Source: a virus
Lineage: Duplodnaviria > Heunggongvirae > Uroviricota > Caudoviricetes
Direction: 5' to 3' (one strand)
Length of the DNA stretch: 8,877 nucleotides
Virus record (IMG/VR): IMGVR_UViG_2660237953_000005
In this document: piece after piece, positions 13 to 8,877 of the stretch
How positions within the stretch are numbered: the stretch's first letter is position 1
Layout of the letters: every line of letters starts with the position of its first letter
Notes under the pieces: generated by a model
The model's database searches: none
The model's input: the letters and a program-made list of their open reading frames with translations, nothing else
Told to the model about the DNA's origin: nothing
Position numbers and translations under genes: made by a program

Positions 13-414
13 TTAATTCGTGTACGTGATCTGGTACGTGATTTCCGCCATCGCCCAGGTGGCCATCTCATTATCACGTTGATAGTTAAAACCGAGTGGG
101 ATCATGGTGTCGATGAGTCCGGAAAGCACCGGAATATCCTTCATGGCCGGAAATATGGTGTTCTCCATCCACGTATCCAGCTCAGAATCCGGCGCCTGTG
201 CACGGACGAAAACGGCAATATGCAGAACAGCCTGCCAGTCGTCCTCATCCGTCATTTTTCCGGTGTACTGCGCATCACTCAGCCACACCGCCACGGCGGG
301 CAGTTCCTGCGCATCAATAAATGCCGGAAGCCCGTCAAAAAACGTGGCGCTGTCTCCACACTGTTCCCGAAGGCGTGCCAGCACGCTCTGACGGATTTGT
401 GTGTGTCGGTTCAT
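13..414 (-). CDS. U: tail tube terminator protein, lambda gpU-like
   Basis: 133-aa ORF. Shares motifs with my recollection of lambda gpU (ATFFDG, PAVAV, YTG, PDSELD.WME, DIP.LS.LI, ITY.ITY). ATG at 412..414 overlaps the Z stop (ATGA), as in lambda. Confidence 0.85.
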   Translation of the reverse strand: MNRHTQIRQSVLARLREQCGDSATFFDGLPAFIDAQELPAVAVWLSDAQYTGKMTDEDDWQAVLHIAVFVRAQAPDSELDTWMENTIFPAMKDIPVLSGLIDTMIPLGFNYQRDNEMATWAMAEITYQITYTN

Positions 415-998
415 TTACTCAGATGTAACCTCAGTTGTTGTTTCAGGGCATACCCCAGCTGTTTCGGCATTTCCGCAGCAATGATGCGGTCGCGGGCATC
501 TTCAAATGCCTGTGTCAGCGGTCCGGACATCGGGATTTTCACCACATCAATGGGGTAACGATTTTTGCCGTCAATACGCCGCATCACATGCCAGCGACCA
601 TTCGCCAGTTGCTGAATAAACGCATCCCGGAAAAGGTATTTCCCCACTTTCAGTACGCTGCCACGATGACGTGAGTTGCTGCCATGCCGGGAGCGGGCCA
701 GTCTGACCTGTGCGGTACCCAGCTTAATGGCGGGCAGGTTACCCCGGTTAACACGCATGCGGGCATACATTTTTCCTGAGGGGCTGGCTTTAAGCAGCCT
801 GACACGCTCCCTGACCGTTTTCAGGGGAATACCTTTCACCTGGTTATCCCCGGCAACGGTATTCTGCGCAACCTGCCGTGTGGCGACAGAAACAATCTTT
901 GCCGCCACACGGTTTACCGCCCATGCGCTGGTCTGTGGCACCATGCGGGTATCGAGGCTGTTCAGATTGCGGATGGCATTCTCAAGTCCCTTCATCAT
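411..998 (-). CDS. Z: tail completion protein, lambda gpZ-like
   Basis: 195-aa ORF (lambda gpZ is 192 aa). Conserved blocks KGLE, NRVA, RVNRG.LP.IKLG, FIQQL.NGRWHVM.R..GKNRYPIDVVKIPM, LGYAL..QLR. ATG at 996..998. Confidence 0.85.
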   Translation of the reverse strand: MMKGLENAIRNLNSLDTRMVPQTSAWAVNRVAAKIVSVATRQVAQNTVAGDNQVKGIPLKTVRERVRLLKASPSGKMYARMRVNRGNLPAIKLGTAQVRLARSRHGSNSRHRGSVLKVGKYLFRDAFIQQLANGRWHVMRRIDGKNRYPIDVVKIPMSGPLTQAFEDARDRIIAAEMPKQLGYALKQQLRLHLSK

Positions 999-1359
999 AT
1001 CGCCTCATTCTGGCATTATTCTGTGGGGCAGGACTGCCCCGCCTTAACCGGATATAACAGCATCCCCCGTCATCCGGAGTAATACGATCCACAAAGAAAG
1101 AATCATCCCCGATAGTTAACGTATCCTGACGGCGTAACTGCGATATATCTGCCGTTTTCACAAACAGGCACGGTGAGGAATCCTCAAGCCGGATCCCCCC
1201 GGCAACAAAAGAAATACTTTCGGGATCATCAAAAACCCCTGTCAGGTGTGTCCCCTCAAGTTCTCCGGACGTAATGACGGCGCTGATCCCCATATCACGG
1301 AGAATGACTTCATTGACACCGGCAAGCGCAGCATCAAACAGATTATCGAAACCGTCCAC
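982..1359 (-). CDS. FII: head-tail joining (head completion) protein, lambda gpFII-like
   Basis: 125-aa ORF. Conserved FDNLFDAA, GVFDDPE.IS, SSP.LFV.T, QLRR.DTLTIG, VDR..PDDGG. Apparent GTG start at 1357..1359 with AGGAG 5 nt upstream. 3' end overlaps the Z start by 17 nt. Confidence 0.8.
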   Translation of the reverse strand: MDGFDNLFDAALAGVNEVILRDMGISAVITSGELEGTHLTGVFDDPESISFVAGGIRLEDSSPCLFVKTADISQLRRQDTLTIGDDSFFVDRITPDDGGCCYIRLRRGSPAPQNNARMRRYDEGT

Positions 1360-1370
1360 GACATCTCCTG

Positions 1371-1757
1371 TTACTGCCTTTTTGCCAGACCACCTGCCGC
1401 CATGCTGGCAGCCACCTCAGCAGAAACACGAAACGACGTTCCCGGTGAAACAAATATCACTGAACCATTACATTTTGTATGCAGTGTCGCCAGTGCCACC
1501 ACCGTAACCTGCCCCGTTTCGTCTCCGGTAACAATGCCTGGCTGTTCAGGAACTGACTCGCCTTTATGCGCGGTCGGATCATCTTTCGATGGTGAGTACG
1601 TATCCGGCTCTGCGACCTCCCCCGCATCTCCAAGCTCTTCCTCCAGTTCCGCCACTCGCTGCGCAATATCTGCCGCACTACCGGAGACATCCGGTTCACG
1701 CCCCAGCCTCTCAGCCAGCTCACAAAGACGTTTCAGGTTTTCTTCTTTCGTAGCCAT
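1371..1757 (-). CDS. FI: DNA-packaging accessory protein, lambda gpFI-like
   Basis: Homology to lambda gpFI (RVAEL.EEL, VTVVAL..LHT, PGT.FRVSA.VAA.M...GLA). Chosen start is the ATG at 1755..1757 (MATKEENLKRL), which matches the lambda N-terminus and has AGGAG 5 nt upstream. The ORF track's earlier start at 1790 lies inside a hairpin and adds 11 non-homologous residues. Confidence 0.8.
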   Translation of the reverse strand: MATKEENLKRLCELAERLGREPDVSGSAADIAQRVAELEEELGDAGEVAEPDTYSPSKDDPTAHKGESVPEQPGIVTGDETGQVTVVALATLHTKCNGSVIFVSPGTSFRVSAEVAASMAAGGLAKRQ

Positions 1758-1776
1758 ACCCGCTCCTGATTGAATG

Positions 1777-1800
1777 AAAAACGGGAGCATTTAGCTCCCG
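1777..1800 (-). terminator. terminator-like hairpin between E and FI (GC-rich 7-bp stem, 5-nt loop, U5 tract)
   Basis: Plus 1782..1788 cgggagc pairs with 1794..1800 gctcccg around loop attta. On the minus-strand transcript this reads CGGGAGC-UAAAU-GCUCCCG followed by UUUUU (plus 1777..1781). It starts 8 nt after the E stop and ends about 20 nt before the FI start. Confidence 0.4.
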
Positions 1801-1808
1801 CTCACGGA

Positions 1809-2837
1809 TTATTTCACCTGCACCACCACAAACTCATCCGGATCCGGCAGCACCATCAGCGGCGCGGACTGCGTCATGGTGAATTCACGCGCCGGATCAC
1901 CCACGGTCAGCCAGTGTTTCGGATAACGGGAAGACGCCACCACGCCTTCAGACAATGCCTGCGCATCCTGAATGGCACCGTAGCAACGAATACCCTCTGC
2001 GGCCGTATTTCCCAGTACCAGTGTGCCGTCCGGCAGATAACGTTTTTCGGTACCGTCCTCTGCCACATAGGACGTTTTTGCCACCACGATTGCCAGATCA
2101 CCATAATACCCTTTGAAGGACACCACCGCCCCCAGGTCTTTCACTGCCGTTTCCAGCTGTGAATTTGAGCCACGACGGGTATCCAGTTTTTCGCGGAACA
2201 GCTTAAAGCCATTCAGCAGACGCCAGACCTTACCATCCATAATGGCAATATTGATGGTGCCGGAAGCAAAATCACAGTACGCATCCAGATCATGCGTCGG
2301 ATCAAAGGTATCGCGGTCCTGAGCGCTCCACTCCGTCCCTCCTGCCTGCGTAATGTTATTTCCCACCGACCGGCCAAAATCGACCTCAACAGTTTCAAAC
2401 TGCTCTCCTTCCATGGTGTATTTGCCATACAGCACGGCATTCACCGCCTGCATCTCTTCCACCTGGACAATGGCGTGCTCTTCCTGTTTGAGGTTATCGG
2501 TGATGATACGCAGGCGACGGTAAGCCGGGCCGTTCAGCTGGGCCGGATCTTCACCGGGAAGACGCTCCACCGCCTGCTGGTAATTAAATTCGTGTTTCGG
2601 CTTAACGTAGCCCGGGCGCAGTACACGAGTTTCACCGCCACGGTGACGCAACACCTTTCCTTCAACAACCGGGGAGACATAGGCCGCCACCGGCGTTTTT
2701 CCGGTAATTTTGTCCAGCATTACCTCTTCGGTATGGAAATTCACCGTACGGCGGAAAAACAGCTCCAGAAACAGCGCACGAAATTTAACTTTTTGTTCGG
2801 TATAACCGAGTAACTGGCGGGTCGTAAACAATCCCAT
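1809..2837 (-). CDS. E: major capsid protein, lambda gpE-like
   Basis: 342-aa ORF (lambda gpE is 341 aa). Extensive conserved blocks: PGYVKPKHE, AIVQVEEMQAV.AVL.GKYTM.GE, NNITQ.GGTEWS, KLDTRRGSNS.LETAVKDLG, LGNT, GDPAREFTM.QSAPLM.L.DPDEFV.VQ. ATG at 2835..2837. Confidence 0.92.
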   Translation of the reverse strand: MGLFTTRQLLGYTEQKVKFRALFLELFFRRTVNFHTEEVMLDKITGKTPVAAYVSPVVEGKVLRHRGGETRVLRPGYVKPKHEFNYQQAVERLPGEDPAQLNGPAYRRLRIITDNLKQEEHAIVQVEEMQAVNAVLYGKYTMEGEQFETVEVDFGRSVGNNITQAGGTEWSAQDRDTFDPTHDLDAYCDFASGTINIAIMDGKVWRLLNGFKLFREKLDTRRGSNSQLETAVKDLGAVVSFKGYYGDLAIVVAKTSYVAEDGTEKRYLPDGTLVLGNTAAEGIRCYGAIQDAQALSEGVVASSRYPKHWLTVGDPAREFTMTQSAPLMVLPDPDEFVVVQVK

Positions 2838-2894
2838 AAATCAGTTCCTTTCATTCAGAAATCAGTCAGGCTACCGCAGTGACCTGATAAAATG

Positions 2895-3242
2895 TTACGG
2901 CAGCGCTGCGTGACTCAGGGCACTGCCGGCAAAGGCATTCGCCTTTTTGTGTGTATCCACTCTCTCAGGCCAGTGGATGGCCTCCGTCGCAAAGGTCCCC
3001 GACTTGTAATACGTCAGCACCGTCTCTGTACCTTCAAGCGGCAGTACCAGTATGCCAACCACATGGCCTGCCTTCTGTCCGTCCCAGACCACCAGTTTCC
3101 CGGTATCCTCATCCAGCATCAGGGGCGTCAGAGCCGGTGTTGCCGAGGAAATCCCGCTGCAGCCTGTGGCGGTATGGGCCGGATCATTACCGGCAAAAAT
3201 ACGTACTTCCGCACGCTGTTCAGTGATGGTTTTCGTTACCAT
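2895..3242 (-). CDS. D: head decoration protein, lambda gpD-like
   Basis: 115-aa ORF (lambda gpD is 110 aa). Conserved DPAHTAT, TPLMLD, KLV.WDG, VGIL, YKSGTF, WPE, AFAG. ATG at 3240..3242 with GAGG about 10 nt upstream. Confidence 0.85.
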   Translation of the reverse strand: MVTKTITEQRAEVRIFAGNDPAHTATGCSGISSATPALTPLMLDEDTGKLVVWDGQKAGHVVGILVLPLEGTETVLTYYKSGTFATEAIHWPERVDTHKKANAFAGSALSHAALP

Positions 3243-3301
3243 ATTGTAAAAACCTCATATTGATGGTCAGCACTGACTTCATGGCATGGCCATGAGCATT
3301 T

Positions 3302-4156
3302 TCACGTCCGCATCACCGTCTGCTGACGTCTGTGGCACGCCACCCTGTACCGCTGCCGGTGAATGGTTCGCCATGNNNNNNNNNNNNNNNNNNNNNNNNN
3401 NNNNNNNNNNNNNNNNNNNNNNNNNNNNNNNNNNNNNNNNNNNNNNNNNNNNNNNNNNNNNNNNNNNNNNNNNNNNNNNNNNNNNNNNNNNNNNNNNNNN
3501 NNNNNNNNNNNNNNNNNNNNNNNNNNNNNNNNNNNNNNNNNNNNNNNNNNTTCAGCCTGCGCCTCTGCCCCTTTTGCCTCATCCAGGGCCATAATCTGAT
3601 CACGAAGTGAGGGTCCGGCATTCGCCTGCGGTGAAGCAGCCAGAATCGGACGGGCTTTTTCCACCGTCATCTCCGGCATCGCCGCCAGCGTTGCCGCCAG
3701 TTGTTCACGTCCTTTCGCCTCTTCACATGCCATAATGCGATCGGCTTCACTCTGCGCAGATACACCAGATTGTTGCGGTGCCGCCACGGCCAGAATCGCC
3801 CGGGCCTGCTCAACGCTCATACCCTGTTGCCCTGCCAGCATCGTGGCCAGTTGTTCACGTCCTTTCGCTTCCTGACACGTCAGGATCCCCATCACTCGCT
3901 GGTTCTCCTGCGCGGCAGCCTCCGTTGCAGTTAATTGCGGCATAGTGCCTCCTGTATCGTGTGTGTTCAGCGTCGCAGCCATCACGCTGATGGCGTCCGA
4001 CGCATTGATTAATTCATCCGCCAGTTCGGCCTCAATACCGGACTGACCTTCAAAAACGGCGGCCTCTGTTCCCATAACCGCATCCACAGATAAACCGGTA
4101 TACATCGCCACTTTTTCAGCAAACATCCGGCGCGCCGCATCAATGCGCTGCTGCAT
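3302..4156 (-). CDS. nu3: possible nested scaffold protein Nu3, translated from an internal in-frame start within C; start and end both uncertain
   Basis: In lambda, Nu3 is the C-terminal part of the C reading frame made from an internal start near C residue 239. Here in-frame ATGs lie at 4154..4156 (MQQRIDAARR) and 4124..4126 (MFAEKV), the region aligning with the lambda Nu3 start. Neither has a convincing SD. The 3' end is affected by the gap. Confidence 0.3.
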   Translation of the reverse strand: MQQRIDAARRMFAEKVAMYTGLSVDAVMGTEAAVFEGQSGIEAELADELINASDAISVMAATLNTHDTGGTMPQLTATEAAAQENQRVMGILTCQEAKGREQLATMLAGQQGMSVEQARAILAVAAPQQSGVSAQSEADRIMACEEAKGREQLAATLAAMPEMTVEKARPILAASPQANAGPSLRDQIMALDEAKGAEAQAEXXXXXXXXXXXXXXXXXXXXXXXXXXXXXXXXXXXXXXXXXXXXXXXXXXXXXXXXXXXWRTIHRQRYRVACHRRQQTVMRT

Positions 4157-4846
4157 GTCCTGGCGAACCTTTGCTGGCAGGGATTCAAACTGATTGCCAT
4201 CCACCTTGTGCGATCCGGCGTAAATCAGCGTGATATCCACACCGGCCTGTGCCAGATGACCGGCATAGCTGACATGGCCCATCATCACCCCAATGGAGCC
4301 GATACGGGATGTCTGGGTAACCAGCCGTCGGGAGCAGGCCGATGCCAGTAACATGGCGGCTGAACAGGCCGTGTCATTGCACAGTGCCCAGACAGGCTTC
4401 AGCTGCCGGAGACGGTAAATCATGTCAGCGCAGTCAAACGCGCCGGTGGCCTGCCCGCCAGAACTGTCAATGTCCAGCAGTACGCCCCGTACCTGAGTGT
4501 CCGCCATTGCCTGCTGAAGACAGGCGACAATGCCGTCATAGCCAGTCATTCCGGAAAATGGCCGCATGCCACCCAGCCGGTGTACCAGCGTGCCGGTCAC
4601 CGGCAGTACAGCAATACCGTTCACCACCCGGTAAACACGGGCAGGTCGTTTGCCTCCGGCCATGTACTCGTCCGTTTCAGCCAGCATCCCGGGAGCGTCA
4701 AGCTGTACCTGCTGTTGCGGTACCGAAAGGCTTGCTGCGCCCATCTCACGCCCGAGCGCGCAAAAGAAAACCCGCGCATAGGCGGGCTCCAGAAGCAGCG
4801 GCTCATTGAATGCCGCAGCGATAATATGTGAAAGATTACGTCTCAC
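3302..4846 (-). CDS. C: capsid assembly protease C with C-terminal scaffold (Nu3) domain, lambda gpC-like; interrupted by an assembly gap, so the 3' end and stop are unreliable
   Basis: N-terminal 300 aa match lambda gpC (AFNEPL.LEPAYARVFFCAL, NGIAVLPV.GTLV, GMTGY.GI...LQQA, GAFDCAD.I.R.R..KPVWAL.ND, LLASA.SRRLVTQT.R.GSIGVMM.H, TLIY.GSHKVDGN, YTGLSV, TEAAV). Apparent GTG start at 4844..4846 overlaps the B stop by 11 nt. The ORF runs through the 175-N gap (3376..3550), so the frame and stop after the gap are arbitrary. Confidence 0.75.
   Translation of the reverse strand: MRRNLSHIIAAAFNEPLLLEPAYARVFFCALGREMGAASLSVPQQQVQLDAPGMLAETDEYMAGGKRPARVYRVVNGIAVLPVTGTLVHRLGGMRPFSGMTGYDGIVACLQQAMADTQVRGVLLDIDSSGGQATGAFDCADMIYRLRQLKPVWALCNDTACSAAMLLASACSRRLVTQTSRIGSIGVMMGHVSYAGHLAQAGVDITLIYAGSHKVDGNQFESLPAKVRQDMQQRIDAARRMFAEKVAMYTGLSVDAVMGTEAAVFEGQSGIEAELADELINASDAISVMAATLNTHDTGGTMPQLTATEAAAQENQRVMGILTCQEAKGREQLATMLAGQQGMSVEQARAILAVAAPQQSGVSAQSEADRIMACEEAKGREQLAATLAAMPEMTVEKARPILAASPQANAGPSLRDQIMALDEAKGAEAQAEXXXXXXXXXXXXXXXXXXXXXXXXXXXXXXXXXXXXXXXXXXXXXXXXXXXXXXXXXXXWRTIHRQRYRVACHRRQQTVMRT
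3376..3550. other. assembly gap (175 N) inside the C/nu3 coding region
   Basis: Run of n characters. It is flanked on the 5' side by tandem repeats, consistent with a collapsed or unresolved repeat. Confidence 0.99.
3551..3895 (-). repeat. in-frame tandem repeat array (at least 3 copies, unit about 141-159 bp, 47-53 aa) in the scaffold-domain part of C/nu3, abutting the gap
   Basis: Exact 23-nt repeat gccagttgttcacgtcctttcgc at 3696..3718 and 3846..3868 (150 bp apart). Protein copies VMGILTCQEAKGREQLATMLAGQQGMSVEQARAILAVAAPQ / IMACEEAKGREQLAATLAAMPEMTVEKARPILAASPQ / IMALDEAKGAEAQAE-(gap). Unit boundaries at plus 3590..3595, 3731..3736, 3890..3895. Confidence 0.8.
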
Positions 4847-6429
4847 GTGATGTTGTCTCCTCTTCCGGCCTGCGACTCTCCGCTATCTGCTGCTGATACG
4901 CCTGGGCTATCCACACCGGACGTGAGAGTCCGGCTTTTTCGCGCTCTGCGGATTCCCTGACCTGCTGGCGGAAAATGTCCTGATAATCTTCGCCCATCAG
5001 TGCCAGTTCTTTCTCATACGTGCTCAGTCCGGCCTCAATGCGCATCACCGATTCCTGGACCTCCTTGAGCCCGTCAATGGCCATTCTTCCGGAGCTAATC
5101 CACTCTGCCCGTGACCAGGCTGAACGCGCCTGGTAAAAATCAAAACGCGCCCGTGGCGGACGAATAATCCCCCGAAGAAGCGCCTCTTCCAGCCAGCAGG
5201 AAAACATCTGCGTGGCCAGCCGGGCCGCAATAAATTTTCGCCGCCCCATAAAATAGCGCCACGACTCATTGGCGGAGGCGCGGGCACTTGAGTAACTGAC
5301 CTTCGAGTAATCACGGGACAACTGTTCGTAGGAAACGCCAAGACCGGCTGCAATATACCGCAGCAGCGCCTGTTCAAGCGCCGAAAATCCATTGTCTGAA
5401 TCCTGCGCTGTCTGCAGGTTCAGCGCATCGCCAGGAAAAAAGGTGCGGAATTTTAACACCGCCCAGCGTCACGTTATTCGTGTCATACCAGCGGGTGAAC
5501 TTCTCCAGAATATTAATAAGCGGATTATCCTGCTGACCTTGCGGTGCCCCCGCGATATATTCAAATGCCTTTTCGGTATCAAGTTCACTTTCGATTGTGG
5601 CTGCATACATCGCCTTCACAATGGCCGACTGAAGCTGCGTGGCCTGCAGGGAGTCCAGCATCTTCATCCGCTCCATTACGCTGTAAAACTGATTAGCCCC
5701 ACGGGTCTGCCCGTCCTCCACCGGCTCAAAAATATGCAGCATGGCCGGACGCCCGGTGGGAAGCTCACGCGGGATCCGCTCCCAGCGTCCGGCACCAGAG
5801 AACGGAAAATCATCCTCACAGATATGGTACGCAATCGCCCGCCCATACCGATCGACCTCAACCCCGGCCCGCAGAAAGTGGTTCCCCATACCGTGTCCTG
5901 GCGTGTCCACCCGTTTCGGACTCACGGCTTTAAAACGCGTACGGAATAACTGCGTGGTTTCCGTATCCCAGACCGGCTGCACAAAGATTTCGCCGTTAAA
6001 GGCATGCACGCCCACCCCTTCACGGATAAATTCCGTAAACGTGCGTTTCCCTTCCACGTCGATCTCGCCAAACATTCCTTCTGCGTATTCCGACCAGGCT
6101 GCTTCCACCTCCCCGACAAAACTTTTTGCCGTGGTCTCCCGCATCCCCAGCCAACGCCAGTTCAGACGGTAGCTGATAAGAAACATGTGCCCGACGATAT
6201 GATCCTTATGCAGGGCCACCGCATTAGCCGCGATACCGTTATTGCGCACCAGATCATCTGCCCGGGCATTCCCCAGACGCAATGCAGGCAACAGGGCCGC
6301 ATCGGCACTCTGCGCCGGTGGTAACCACTCTGCCATTTGCCCGCCAAATCCTGCGCCGCCTCCGTTGTAGCTGAGACTCTCACGAAGCGGAACGCCGTTC
6401 ACATCAATCAGGACAGGCGTTCGTTTCAT
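4836..6429 (-). pseudogene. B: portal protein, lambda gpB-like; as assembled, the frame is broken by a 1-nt indel in a homopolymer (A6 on plus, 5436..5441), giving two ORFs (5374..6429 and 4836..5459)
   Basis: The upstream ORF (351 aa, ATG 6427..6429, MKRTPVLIDVNGVPL...) and the downstream ORF (ending ...RRPEEETTSRET) together equal the ~533-aa lambda portal. Homology continues across the junction only after a frame change within ccgcaccTTTTTTcctggcgat: HLF in one frame, then FPGDALNLQTAQDSDNGFSALEQ in the next. Confidence 0.85.
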
Positions 6430-6629
6430 AACCTCACTCCCAGCGGTCGGCGGCGTCGGGTCGTACCCAGAACCGACTCCGCATCGTTGATCGCACGGTT
6501 AAGCTCATTCAGGGACGCTGCCGTATATTCGATCCTGCGACCGTCTTTCTGTACCGACACAACCCGTTTACCGGTTAATAAATCAAGGCGCGCCTGACGC
6601 AGCGCCTGCAGTTCAGCGACTGTAACCAT
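6426..6629 (-). CDS. W: head completion / head-tail connector protein, lambda gpW-like
   Basis: 67-aa ORF (lambda gpW is 68 aa). Conserved L.TGKRV..VQKDGRR.E.TA.S and the RRR motif near the C-terminus. ATG at 6627..6629 directly follows the A stop, with GGAGGAG upstream. Stop overlaps the B start (ATGA). Confidence 0.85.
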   Translation of the reverse strand: MVTVAELQALRQARLDLLTGKRVVSVQKDGRRIEYTAASLNELNRAINDAESVLGTTRRRRPLGVRL

Positions 6630-8540
6630 TCACTCCTCCGGACAGCTTCGCTGCCAGTTCTTCAAGGGTCGGTTGTGCAGTTGCATCCTTGCGGGATGCA
6701 ACTGCACAGCCAGATCAAGTTGCCAGCGTTGCACGGACACACGTAATGCCGCATAGGCATACACCAGGCAGTCCAGCGCTTCGTTACGCCGCTTTTTGTT
6801 ATCCCACAACAGACGCATCTTTCCTTTTTCCCACTTTTCCACCAGTTCCTCCGCCACCAGTTGTTGTGCCTCTGTCTGCGAAAAAATCTCCGGATTATCA
6901 GGAAAGCGGATGGCATACGATGTGGCCTCATTCACAGGGGTGGGATCGGCCTTCATTCGGGCATAGAGAATTTCTTTTGCGGTATCCGTCCCCACCTCAC
7001 ACAGATACACACCCCGCTGATTGCGGGTTTTCGGCATGGTGATCACCGGCTTGCCATAGACAGAGGCACCTTTTACCGGCAGTACCCGGAAAATACCGTG
7101 TTTTTTTGACCTCTGATACACGATTTCGCCATCGATCCCCCCGATATCCCAGCAGACACGGGAAATGGTCATTTCGGTACCGTCTGCATGGCGGTATTTT
7201 TTATTGATCGCCGCATCCACACGTAACAGCGTCTCTTCCTCATCAGGACGTCCCATGATGATGATTTTATCCACCAGAAAGGCTTCCTCTCCCGGAGCCC
7301 ACCCCCAGACATACATCTCAAAACGGTTTCGCTGCGAGTCAATGCCCGCCGTCAGATAAACCACCCGGACAGGCACCGTTGCCGTGTAAGGCACAACCTT
7401 ATCCATCAGTACCTGGTGATCGAGTTTTTCGCCCACGGCCTCTTCCCAGGTCTCGCCCAGCGTGGTGTTCACAAAAGTTTTCACGCCGTTGGGATCTTTC
7501 AGTGCATCCAGCCAGTCACAGACTATCTGTACCCTGGTGGTGAACGGACTGTACGCCGTCCATATATGGAAAGTGATGGAGCGCGGCGGCGGAATTTCAT
7601 TACCCGAAGCACTGAAAAACGTCAGACCGTCACACGTCCACATCCCGGTATTGTCACAAATCCAGCGCCCCCCGGTCTGATCAAGTTCAGACTGACGGAT
7701 CACGCAGCCATTATGTTCACACAGGTAATACACCGTTTCCGGTTTACCCTTCTCCCATTTCAGGCCAAACGACGTCGCATCATCGCCAAACTTCAGATAC
7801 TGCTCCTCCCCGCAATGAGGGCAAGGGACATAAAACCGCATGAAATGCGCAGATTCATTCGCAGCTTTTTCAATCTGACAGGAGCCTTTAATTTTTGGCG
7901 TTGAACCGCGTATGGATTTTGGCCATACCGAACCTTCAATACGTTTATCGCCAAGCAGTGTTGGCGAACCTTCTTTTTCCACATCCGGTTCAAACGAGGA
8001 GAGTTCGTCATAGCAGACCACATCGACAGATTTTTCACGGTAGTTTTTGGCAGCAGCACCACCCAAACACCAGAACCCCACACCAGAGGAAAAACGCTTC
8101 AGTGTGAGCGTATTATCCCGGTGTTTCCGGCCCAGCCAGGGAGAAAGTTTTTTCAGGCAAGGAACATCACGAATTGTTGCTTCCACGTGAGACTTCATAA
8201 AATCTTCAGCAGCTGAGTCCGTCGGCTGAAAAAGAAGAGTGTTGCGGGATTTGTGCTCAATAAAATACCCGATCACACCAAGCACCATTTTTGTATAACC
8301 AACACGGGCAGATTTAATCAGGTTAACTGTACGAATCTCGTCATTGCCCATGCAGTTCATGATGGCGACCTGAAACTGCAGCGTTTTCCATTCCCCCTCA
8401 CCGTATGACGATTCTTTAGGCAGGTAATAATTTTGATCGGCCCATTCTACAGCCGTCACCGGCAATACCCTGACCAGTGGCTGCAGTGCGATAGTGACTG
8501 CCACCATCATATTACTCAGTTGTTGTTCTGATATATTCAT
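6630..8540 (-). CDS. A: terminase large subunit, lambda gpA-like
   Basis: Strong homology across about 600 aa (TAVEWAD.NYYLPKES, KSARVGY.KM, YFIEHK.RNTL, RDNTLT.KRF, GFWCLGG.AAKNYREKSVDV, GSPT.LGDKRIEGSVWPKSIRGSTPK, HFMRF.V.CPHCGEEQYLKFGD, FHIWTAYSPFTT, KTFVNTTLGETWE, YLTAGIDSQ, GIFRV.P.KGASVYGKPV, WD.KKRRNEALDC). Start taken at the MNISEQQ methionine (8538..8540), matching the lambda gpA N-terminus (MNIS...), not the ORF-track start at 8597. The start overlaps the nu1 3' end by 29 nt, similar to lambda. Confidence 0.92.
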   Translation of the reverse strand: MNISEQQLSNMMVAVTIALQPLVRVLPVTAVEWADQNYYLPKESSYGEGEWKTLQFQVAIMNCMGNDEIRTVNLIKSARVGYTKMVLGVIGYFIEHKSRNTLLFQPTDSAAEDFMKSHVEATIRDVPCLKKLSPWLGRKHRDNTLTLKRFSSGVGFWCLGGAAAKNYREKSVDVVCYDELSSFEPDVEKEGSPTLLGDKRIEGSVWPKSIRGSTPKIKGSCQIEKAANESAHFMRFYVPCPHCGEEQYLKFGDDATSFGLKWEKGKPETVYYLCEHNGCVIRQSELDQTGGRWICDNTGMWTCDGLTFFSASGNEIPPPRSITFHIWTAYSPFTTRVQIVCDWLDALKDPNGVKTFVNTTLGETWEEAVGEKLDHQVLMDKVVPYTATVPVRVVYLTAGIDSQRNRFEMYVWGWAPGEEAFLVDKIIIMGRPDEEETLLRVDAAINKKYRHADGTEMTISRVCWDIGGIDGEIVYQRSKKHGIFRVLPVKGASVYGKPVITMPKTRNQRGVYLCEVGTDTAKEILYARMKADPTPVNEATSYAIRFPDNPEIFSQTEAQQLVAEELVEKWEKGKMRLLWDNKKRRNEALDCLVYAYAALRVSVQRWQLDLAVQLHPARMQLHNRPLKNWQRSCPEE

Positions 8541-8835
8541 CGAGTAAATCCGGTAATTTATCCCCCGCACGCGCGCACTGATTCGCTCCCTTAGCAATAA
8601 GGATTTTCAGATGATCAATATGACGCGGCGTTAAATCCGGGAACTGTCGTTGCATGGACAAAGGAATGGAGTCAAGCGTACTGGATAAAGCCATCGCCAG
8701 CTTACTAAGGGCAAAAATACAAAATCCGGTATCGATAAGATTTCCTTTTGACACCTGATTTTTTAACTGCTGTGCGACAGCCTGTTCTGCGGTCAGTTCC
8801 CATCTGGCAATGAGTAGTTTGAGGTGTACTGGCAA
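8512..8835 (-). CDS. nu1: terminase small subunit, lambda Nu1-like, C-terminal region only; the N-terminal DNA-binding part is not found in frame within the window
   Basis: The C-terminal ~100 aa align with lambda Nu1 (LT..QA.AQ.LKN, FC.F.LS..A...S.LD..PLS.QR.FP.L..RH.D.LK, LP.LL.EYI). The ORF-track start is a TTG at 8833..8835. The same frame has a TAG at 8845..8847 and a TAA at 8863..8865 immediately upstream. Confidence 0.55.
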   Translation of the reverse strand: MPVHLKLLIARWELTAEQAVAQQLKNQVSKGNLIDTGFCIFALSKLAMALSSTLDSIPLSMQRQFPDLTPRHIDHLKILIAKGANQCARAGDKLPDLLDEYIRTTTE

Positions 8836-8877
8836 TAGCGGACACTACCATTTGTTCTTTTTTTAAGCAGCCATCTG

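What the first reader, a model, noticed from the sequence alone, without database searches (positions are those of the whole stretch)
5430..5445. Portal gene B interrupted by a single-base indel in an A6/T6 homopolymer
Homology to lambda portal is continuous only if the frame shifts by one base within ccaggAAAAAAggtg (plus 5431..5445; the A run is 5436..5441). As given, the upstream frame reads ...IPHLF then 20 non-homologous residues and a stop, while the adjacent frame picks up FPGDALNLQTAQDSDNGFSALEQ.... With five A's instead of six the gene would encode one ~533-aa portal. This is either a homopolymer sequencing error (plausible given the N gap) or a real inactivating mutation marking a defective prophage. 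The portal is essential, so the distinction decides whether this head module is functional.
Basis: seen in the sequence. Interest (0 to 1): 0.5.

Follow-up and report, generated by a model that had tools for sequence, protein, structure and literature searches.

The report
Real frameshift in Shigella prophage portal
The extra base that splits the phage portal gene is a genuine inherited mutation, found in every Shigella flexneri copy examined, in a prophage that is also broken elsewhere, so it is an ordinary dead gene and not a sequencing error.

Summary
Plus-strand A6 at 5436..5441 (T6 in the minus-strand gene) splits a phage-21/lambda-type portal gene. The pieces are a 351-aa ORF (331 native residues, 20 out-of-frame residues, then a stop) and an overlapping ORF that carries residues 332-530.

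Removing one base gives a 530-aa portal. It is 96.6% identical to phage 21 gp4, 61% to lambda gpB and 99.8% to an intact E. coli prophage portal.

This is not an assembly error. Outside its N gap the window is 100% identical to complete Shigella flexneri chromosomes. All ten independent S. flexneri assemblies fetched carry the six-base run. The exact truncated protein is on record on at least 1000 contigs, named only as S. flexneri. All 20 phage hits and all 30 listed E. coli copies carry five bases and an intact gene.

The break maps to the clip domain of lambda gpB. It removes the second stem helix, the rest of the wing and the crown.

The portal does not decide whether the module works. IS600 has removed the first 67 codons of the small terminase gene. 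A second frameshift displaces the last 28 residues of the large terminase.

Nothing suggests programmed recoding. This is routine prophage decay of low interest.

The parts
5436..5441 (-). Frameshift site: T6 in the coding sense (A6 on the plus strand). Intact relatives have T5. The sense context is CAC CTT TTT TCC TGG.
   Evidence: Searches give the sequence. One search shows the single-base indel against E. coli L001 and L002. One search shows a run of 6 in the window and L003-L012, and a run of 5 in L001 and L002.
5374..6429 (-). Portal pseudogene, 5' fragment: 331 native residues, 20 out-of-frame residues, then a stop (351 aa).
   Evidence: One search gives the translation. One search shows 100% identity to residues 1-331 of an intact E. 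coli portal. One search reports Pfam PF05136. One search shows this exact protein is deposited as 'Head-tail preconnector gp5 [Shigella flexneri]'.
4836..5459 (-). Portal pseudogene, 3' fragment: this ORF carries portal residues 332-530 (homologous from 5435 downwards) and has no native start of its own.
   Evidence: One search gives the translation. Searches give the alignments. One search reports PF05136 on the 207-aa product.
6426..6629 (-). gpW-type head-tail adaptor gene, intact (67 aa).
   Evidence: One search shows 100% identity over 67 aa. One search reports PF02831.
6630..8540 (-). Large terminase gene (gpA type) with a second frameshift. A complex change at 6700..6704 (3 substitutions and a 1-bp deletion) puts the last 28 codons in another frame, giving 636 aa instead of 642.
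   Evidence: One search shows residues 1-612 in one frame and 615-642 in another. Searches show the site and its distribution among strains.
8515..8820 (-). Remnant of the small terminase gene (Nu1 type). Only residues 68-169 remain, and the N-terminal part is missing from the window. In lambda that part is the cosB-binding domain (textbook knowledge, not tested here).
   Evidence: One search shows that tblastn covers only residues 68-169. In one search the alignment to intact prophages ends at 8820.
8821..8877 (-). End of an IS600 copy that abuts the truncated small terminase gene.
   Evidence: One search shows the 58-base stretch repeated at other IS copies in the loci. One search shows the full element in L005 is 99.7% identical to annotated 'IS3-like element IS600 family transposase'.
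3279..4846 (-). S49 protease/scaffold gene (gpC/Nu3 type). It appears intact but holds the assembly gap 3376..3550, where 175 N stand for 113 real bases.
   Evidence: One search reports a 501-aa PF01343 product in the gap-free loci.
13..3242 (-). The remaining head and head-tail genes, all with full-length matches: decoration protein 2895..3242, major capsid protein 1809..2837, FI 1371..1757, FII 982..1359, Z 411..995, U 13..414.
   Evidence: full-length tblastn matches; gene calls and Pfam families in the identical loci.

Best explanation
The window is the head-gene end of a cryptic phage-21-like (lambdoid) prophage of Shigella flexneri. One T was inserted into a T5 run at codon 331/332 of the portal gene, most likely by replication slippage. 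The mutation became fixed before the sampled S. flexneri lineages diverged. Translation now leaves the portal frame inside the clip domain and stops 20 codons later. The product lacks the second stem helix, the second half of the wing and the crown, so it cannot be expected to form the dodecameric DNA channel. The gene is a true pseudogene. It sits in an element that is independently disabled: IS600 has removed the 5' end of the small terminase gene, and in this sub-lineage a second frameshift hits the large terminase C-terminus. What is shown: the mutation is real, it is derived, it is lineage-wide, and the accompanying lesions exist. What is inferred: slippage as the cause, loss of portal function, and failure to make particles.
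For: The sequence and reading frames are as described. Outside the N gap the window is 100% identical to L003 (WACK01000005.1) and L005 (CP012735.1), and identical over 5327 bases to L010 (AE014073.1). It is also identical to two IMG/VR contigs. All ten separate S. flexneri assemblies have T6, while E. coli L001 and L002 have T5. The exact 351-aa product is indexed in 2587 blocks, 31 of which hold it on contigs longer than 1 Mb. It is seen on at least 1000 contigs and is named only as Shigella flexneri, including strain 301. A scan of species-representative genomes for the A6 30-mer finds only S. flexneri SFBU1023 and a 4.44-Mb genome labelled E. coli ECMA0423. All 20 phage hits and all 30 listed E. 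coli hits align 1593 bases to the 1594-base query, one base fewer, and are annotated as a single portal CDS. No RefSeq complete E. coli genome holds the 81-mer with A6. The repaired protein is 530 aa, 99.8% identical to an intact E. coli portal and 96.6% to phage 21 gp4. It matches the lambda gpB structure 8K38 at E = 4e-213. The break aligns to gpB residue 334/335, inside the clip domain (residues 280-342), ahead of stem 343-367, wing 368-452 and crown 453-511 (PMC10721106). Other lesions in the element are the Nu1 truncation by IS600, the terL frameshift and two further terL indels in strain L008.
Against: No reads, expression data or induction data were available, so non-function is inferred from the sequence. 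The other head genes (W, C, D, E, FI, FII, Z, U) still have full-length matches, so the decay is recent and partial. A low level of spontaneous +1 slippage on the U6 run could restore the native sequence and cannot be excluded by sequence alone.
Confidence: 0.95

Rival explanations
1. The extra base is a homopolymer sequencing or assembly error in a draft assembly, and the real gene has five A/T and is intact.
For: The window holds an N gap, so it comes from a draft scaffold. Homopolymers are a known weak point of some sequencing platforms (general knowledge).
Against: The same six-base run is present in ten independent assemblies, several of them complete chromosomes. The same truncated protein occurs on at least 1000 contigs. 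Outside the gap the window has no difference at all from L003 and L005. None of the other ten homopolymers of 6 bases or more in the window differs from the S. flexneri references.
Confidence: 0.01
2. The T6/U6 run is a recoding site. A +1 ribosomal frameshift (tRNA-Phe slipping from UUU to UUU) or loss of one U by RNA polymerase slippage produces a useful amount of full-length portal, so the gene is functionally intact.
For: A +1 slip on CUU UUU UCC would restore exactly the native ...HLFPGD... sequence (read from the sequence). From memory, transcriptional slippage on long A/T runs is known in S. flexneri (mxiE and others).
Against: The shift is not conserved: all 20 phage hits and all 30 listed E. 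coli copies have T5 and one ORF. There is no Shine-Dalgarno-like stimulator upstream and no rare or stop codon in the A site. The local RNA fold is no better than shuffled sequence, z = -0.82. A run of 6 is shorter than the runs of about 8-9 or more known to give efficient transcriptional slippage (general knowledge). Restoration would serve no purpose because Nu1 and terL are also broken.
Confidence: 0.02
3. The truncated portal fragment has been kept because it is useful to the host, for example as a dominant-negative subunit that poisons head assembly of superinfecting lambdoid phages.
For: The allele is fixed across S. flexneri, and the N-terminal 331 residues are unchanged from an intact E. 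coli portal.
Against: Fixation is explained just as well by inheritance in a young clonal lineage with many pseudogenes and IS copies. The few strain-to-strain differences are scattered, and further inactivating lesions accumulate in the neighbouring terL. That pattern indicates neutral decay, not selection. No evidence of expression is available.
Confidence: 0.02

Closest known systems
Phage 21 portal gp4 (gene 4; Jouyvirus) and its intact E. coli prophage orthologues
   Same: The repaired protein is 96.6% identical over 530 aa to phage 21 gp4 and 99.8% to the E. coli CFSAN029787 prophage portal. The gene order is the same: Nu1-A-W-portal-C/Nu3-D-E-FI-FII-Z-U.
   Different: The S. flexneri copy has one extra T at codon 331/332 and is split into two ORFs.
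Lambda portal protein gpB (PDB 8K38 and related entries; Pfam PF05136 Phage_portal_2)
   Same: Homologous over the full length: 61% identity, E = 4e-213. The segment just after the break (PGD.LNLQTAQD.DNG...LLRYIAAGLGVSYEQLSR) is nearly invariant between the two.
   Different: Lambda gpB is 533 aa and much less similar than phage 21 gp4. The window copy stops in the clip domain, equivalent to gpB residue 334/335.
Cryptic (defective) prophages of Shigella and E. coli that decay through IS insertion, deletion and frameshifts
   Same: IS600 cuts the small terminase gene. There are frameshifts in the portal and the large terminase. Individual strains carry further lesions. A genome paper describes S. 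flexneri phage regions as mostly cryptic after gene loss (PMC6424224).
   Different: Nothing essential differs. Most structural genes here still have full-length matches, so the decay is at an early stage.

Membership tests
Lambda-family portal protein (PF05136; lambda gpB / phage 21 gp4) | Sequence homology across the whole protein | tested here: met
It matches PDB 8K38 at E = 4e-213 over residues 5-527. Both fragments hit PF05136.
Lambda-family portal protein (PF05136; lambda gpB / phage 21 gp4) | One uninterrupted reading frame of about 530 aa | tested here: not met
   The frame changes at 5436..5441. The products are 351 aa and an ORF of 207 aa.
Lambda-family portal protein (PF05136; lambda gpB / phage 21 gp4) | Position between the gpW-type adaptor gene and the gpC-type protease/scaffold gene | tested here: met
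   W lies at 6426..6629 and C at 3279..4846, on either side of the portal fragments. The order matches phage 21 and lambda.
Lambda-family portal protein (PF05136; lambda gpB / phage 21 gp4) | Assembly into a dodecameric channel that supports DNA packaging | not testable with these tools
   Loss is inferred because the second stem helix, the second part of the wing and the crown are missing.
Frameshift pseudogene in a defective prophage | The indel is derived relative to intact orthologues | tested here: met
   There is T5 and a single CDS in E. coli L001 and L002. All 20 phage hits and all 30 listed E. coli hits are one base shorter than the query.
Frameshift pseudogene in a defective prophage | Reproducible in independent assemblies, so not an artefact | tested here: met
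   Ten separate assemblies carry T6. The exact product is on at least 1000 contigs. The A6 30-mer is found in S. flexneri SFBU1023.
Frameshift pseudogene in a defective prophage | Other inactivating lesions in the same element | tested here: met
   Nu1 residues 1-67 are missing from the window at an IS600 junction. There is a terL C-terminal frameshift. Strain L008 has extra terL indels.
Frameshift pseudogene in a defective prophage | No particle production on induction | not testable with these tools
   This needs an induction experiment.
Programmed frameshift or transcriptional slippage site | The shifted arrangement is conserved among relatives | tested here: not met
   Only S. flexneri carries the six-base run. 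The phage and E. coli relatives examined are unshifted.
Programmed frameshift or transcriptional slippage site | A slippery motif with stimulatory elements (upstream SD-like sequence, slow A-site codon, downstream structure, or a long A/T run) | tested here: not met
   The context AAAAUUCCGCAC CUU UUU UCC UGG has no SD-like element and no rare or stop codon in the A site. The fold z-score is -0.82. The run is only 6 bases long.
Homopolymer sequencing error | Absent from independent, high-quality assemblies of the same lineage | tested here: not met
   The run is present in every S. flexneri assembly retrieved, including complete chromosomes.

The most novel reading that the evidence does not exclude
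The fixed, truncated 351-aa portal fragment is not neutral debris. It would be expressed and act on superinfecting lambdoid phages as a dominant-negative portal subunit, or be partly rescued by +1 slippage on the U6 run so that the remnant still contributes portal protein. Nothing here supports this. The sequence data simply cannot exclude it.
Probability: 0.03. Interest if true: 0.45.

Novelty: already known. Interest (0 to 1): 0.08.

Why it matters
The six-base run is genuine, so the portal gene is a pseudogene, and annotators should mark it as one rather than correct the sequence. It also shows the question carried less weight than assumed, because the packaging genes next to the portal are independently broken. 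Beyond that it is one more example of prophage decay in the IS-rich, pseudogene-rich S. flexneri genome. The shared T6 allele, the IS600/Nu1 junction and the sub-lineage terL lesion could serve as minor phylogenetic markers.

Tried and rejected
1. Sequencing error. I rejected this after finding the exact truncated protein and the identical DNA in many independent assemblies.

2. Programmed recoding. I examined the codon context and folded 131 nt around the site (z = -0.82). I found no stimulators and no conservation of the shift.

3. A6 carriers among RefSeq complete E. coli genomes. An 81-base query found none with an identical match; the five best hits each differ by the single-base gap. Megablast needs an exact 28-base word, so divergent copies were not assessed this way.

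4. Literature. No paper in the held library discusses this specific lesion. The 2457T and 301 genome papers are not held. Only a general statement that S. flexneri prophage regions are cryptic was found.

5. Searches not run. I did not run the large protein database searches or a structure prediction, because exact-match look-ups and the solved lambda gpB structure already answered the question.

Full report
**Observation**

The plus strand reads gccaggAAAAAAggtg, with the A run at 5436..5441. All genes in the window lie on the minus strand, so the run is T6 in the coding sense: CAC CTT TTT TCC TGG.

ORF 5374..6429(-) ends ...GGVKIPHLF, followed by 20 unrelated residues (SWRCAEPADSAGFRQWIFGA) and a stop. 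ORF 4836..5459(-) reads ...FFPGDALNLQTAQDSDNGFSALEQ....

tblastn with an intact E. coli portal matches residues 1-331 at 100% identity in one frame and the remainder to residue 530 in the adjacent frame. Deleting one base gives a 530-aa protein.

**What the gene is**

The repaired protein compares as follows:

| Comparison | Identity |
|---|---|
| Phage 21 portal gp4 | 96.6% |
| Lambda gpB | 61% |
| E. coli CFSAN029787 prophage portal | 99.8% (1 difference) |
| E. coli FDAARGOS_943 prophage portal | 99.6% (2 differences) |

It matches the solved lambda portal 8K38 at E = 4e-213 over residues 5-527.

The window carries the usual lambdoid head order. A small terminase remnant and the large terminase come first, then W, the portal and C/Nu3, then D, E, FI, FII, Z and U.

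**Error or mutation**

This was the open question, and the evidence is clear.

An exact-sequence look-up of the truncated 351-aa product found it in 2587 blocks of the public assembly index. In 31 of those blocks it sits on contigs longer than 1 Mb.

Ten loci from ten different assemblies were retrieved (L003-L012). All ten have the six-base run. Outside its N gap the window is 100% identical to L003 (WACK01000005.1) and L005 (CP012735.1). It is identical over 5327 bases to L010 (AE014073.1). It is also identical to two IMG/VR contigs.

The cluster look-up shows this exact protein on at least 1000 contigs. Its only names are 'Head-tail preconnector gp5 [Shigella flexneri]', including strain 301. 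From memory, the listed accessions AAN42336, AAP16213, ABF04804 and ADA73063 belong to strains 301, 2457T, 8401 and 2002017. These were sequenced by different groups with different methods.

A scan of species-representative genomes for the A6 30-mer hit only 'Shigella flexneri strain SFBU1023' and a 4.44-Mb genome labelled E. coli ECMA0423.

The relatives differ. All 20 phage hits and all 30 listed E. coli hits align 1593 bases to the 1594-base query and are annotated as one portal CDS. L001 and L002 have a five-base run. No RefSeq complete E. coli genome holds the 81-mer with A6.

The six-base run is therefore a derived, inherited allele of S. flexneri and not an artefact of this draft.

**Consequence for the protein**

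In the alignment to lambda gpB, residue 331 corresponds to gpB 334. The published gpB domains are (PMC10721106):

- wing: 24-249 and 368-452
- stem: 250-279 and 343-367
- clip: 280-342
- crown: 453-511

The reading frame is lost near the end of the clip. The second stem helix, the second part of the wing and the crown are not made. The lost part includes the best-conserved stretch of the family. Loss of function is an inference, but a safe one.

**State of the rest of the module**

It does not.

1. Only residues 68-169 of the small terminase remain. Homology to intact prophages stops at 8820. Positions 8821..8877 are the end of an insertion sequence identified as IS600. In the window-type strains the upstream Rz-type lysis gene is also shortened, to 134 aa against 155 aa. 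This points to a deletion that probably took the cos region as well, but that was not checked directly.

2. The large terminase carries a complex change at 6700..6704: three substitutions and a one-base deletion. It puts its last 28 codons out of frame, giving 636 aa instead of 642. Five of the ten S. flexneri loci have this change and five keep the E. coli-type sequence. It therefore arose after the portal frameshift.

3. Strain L008 has two further single-base indels in the large terminase.

The remaining head genes have full-length matches. Decay is recent and continuing, as expected for cryptic prophages of S. flexneri (PMC6424224).

**Recoding considered**

A +1 slip of tRNA-Phe on CUU UUU UCC would restore the native ...HLFPGD... 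sequence. Four points argue against a programmed event:

- The shifted arrangement is confined to S. flexneri among the relatives examined.
- There is no Shine-Dalgarno-like element upstream and no slow or stop codon in the A site.
- The local RNA fold is unremarkable, z = -0.82.
- A run of six is short for transcriptional slippage (general knowledge).

Any restoration would also be useless, given the broken terminase genes.

**Verdict**

The lesion has been deposited as two separate CDSs in public S. flexneri records. It is a routine case of prophage decay. Interest is low.

Noticed in passing
window 6700..6704 (terL, minus strand): There is a second frameshift in the window. A complex change (AACT here against CGCCA in E. 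coli and in half of the S. flexneri loci) deletes one base and puts the last 28 codons of the large terminase out of frame. From memory, the equivalent C-terminal tail in lambda gpA binds the prohead.
   Followed up: partly
window 8515..8877: The small terminase gene lacks its first 67 codons and abuts the end of an IS600 copy (junction 8820/8821). In window-type strains the neighbouring Rz-type lysis gene is also shortened, which suggests an IS-associated deletion that may have removed cos.
   Followed up: partly
window 3376..3550: The 175-N gap inside the gpC-type protease/scaffold gene stands for only 113 real bases in the identical complete genomes, so the gap length is an estimate. The missing sequence codes for residues of about 433-470.
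   Followed up: yes
window 61..298 (gpU-type gene): A cluster of 22 substitutions separates the window, L003, L005, L007 and L008 from the other S. flexneri loci, including 2457T, while the surrounding DNA is nearly identical. This looks like a short gene-conversion patch from another lambdoid prophage.
   Followed up: no
L008 / L022 (CP178302.1), equivalent to window 7814 and 7942: This 4.44-Mb genome is titled Escherichia coli ECMA0423, yet it carries the S. flexneri-type prophage with the portal frameshift plus two further single-base indels that split the large terminase gene. It may be a mislabelled Shigella or a close relative.
   Followed up: no
L003 2321..3742: One S. flexneri strain has a group II intron-type reverse transcriptase gene (RVT_1 and GIIM domains) inserted between the Q antiterminator gene and the holin gene of this prophage. 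It is absent from the other loci.
   Followed up: no
window 982..1757 (FI and FII genes): These two genes are only 54-65% identical at protein level to those of E. coli CFSAN029787, but the DNA is about 98% identical to E. coli FDAARGOS_943. This is typical lambdoid mosaicism. In FDAARGOS_943 the FII gene is itself frameshifted at a C5/C6 run (window 1195..1200) and adjoins an ISEc60 copy.
   Followed up: partly
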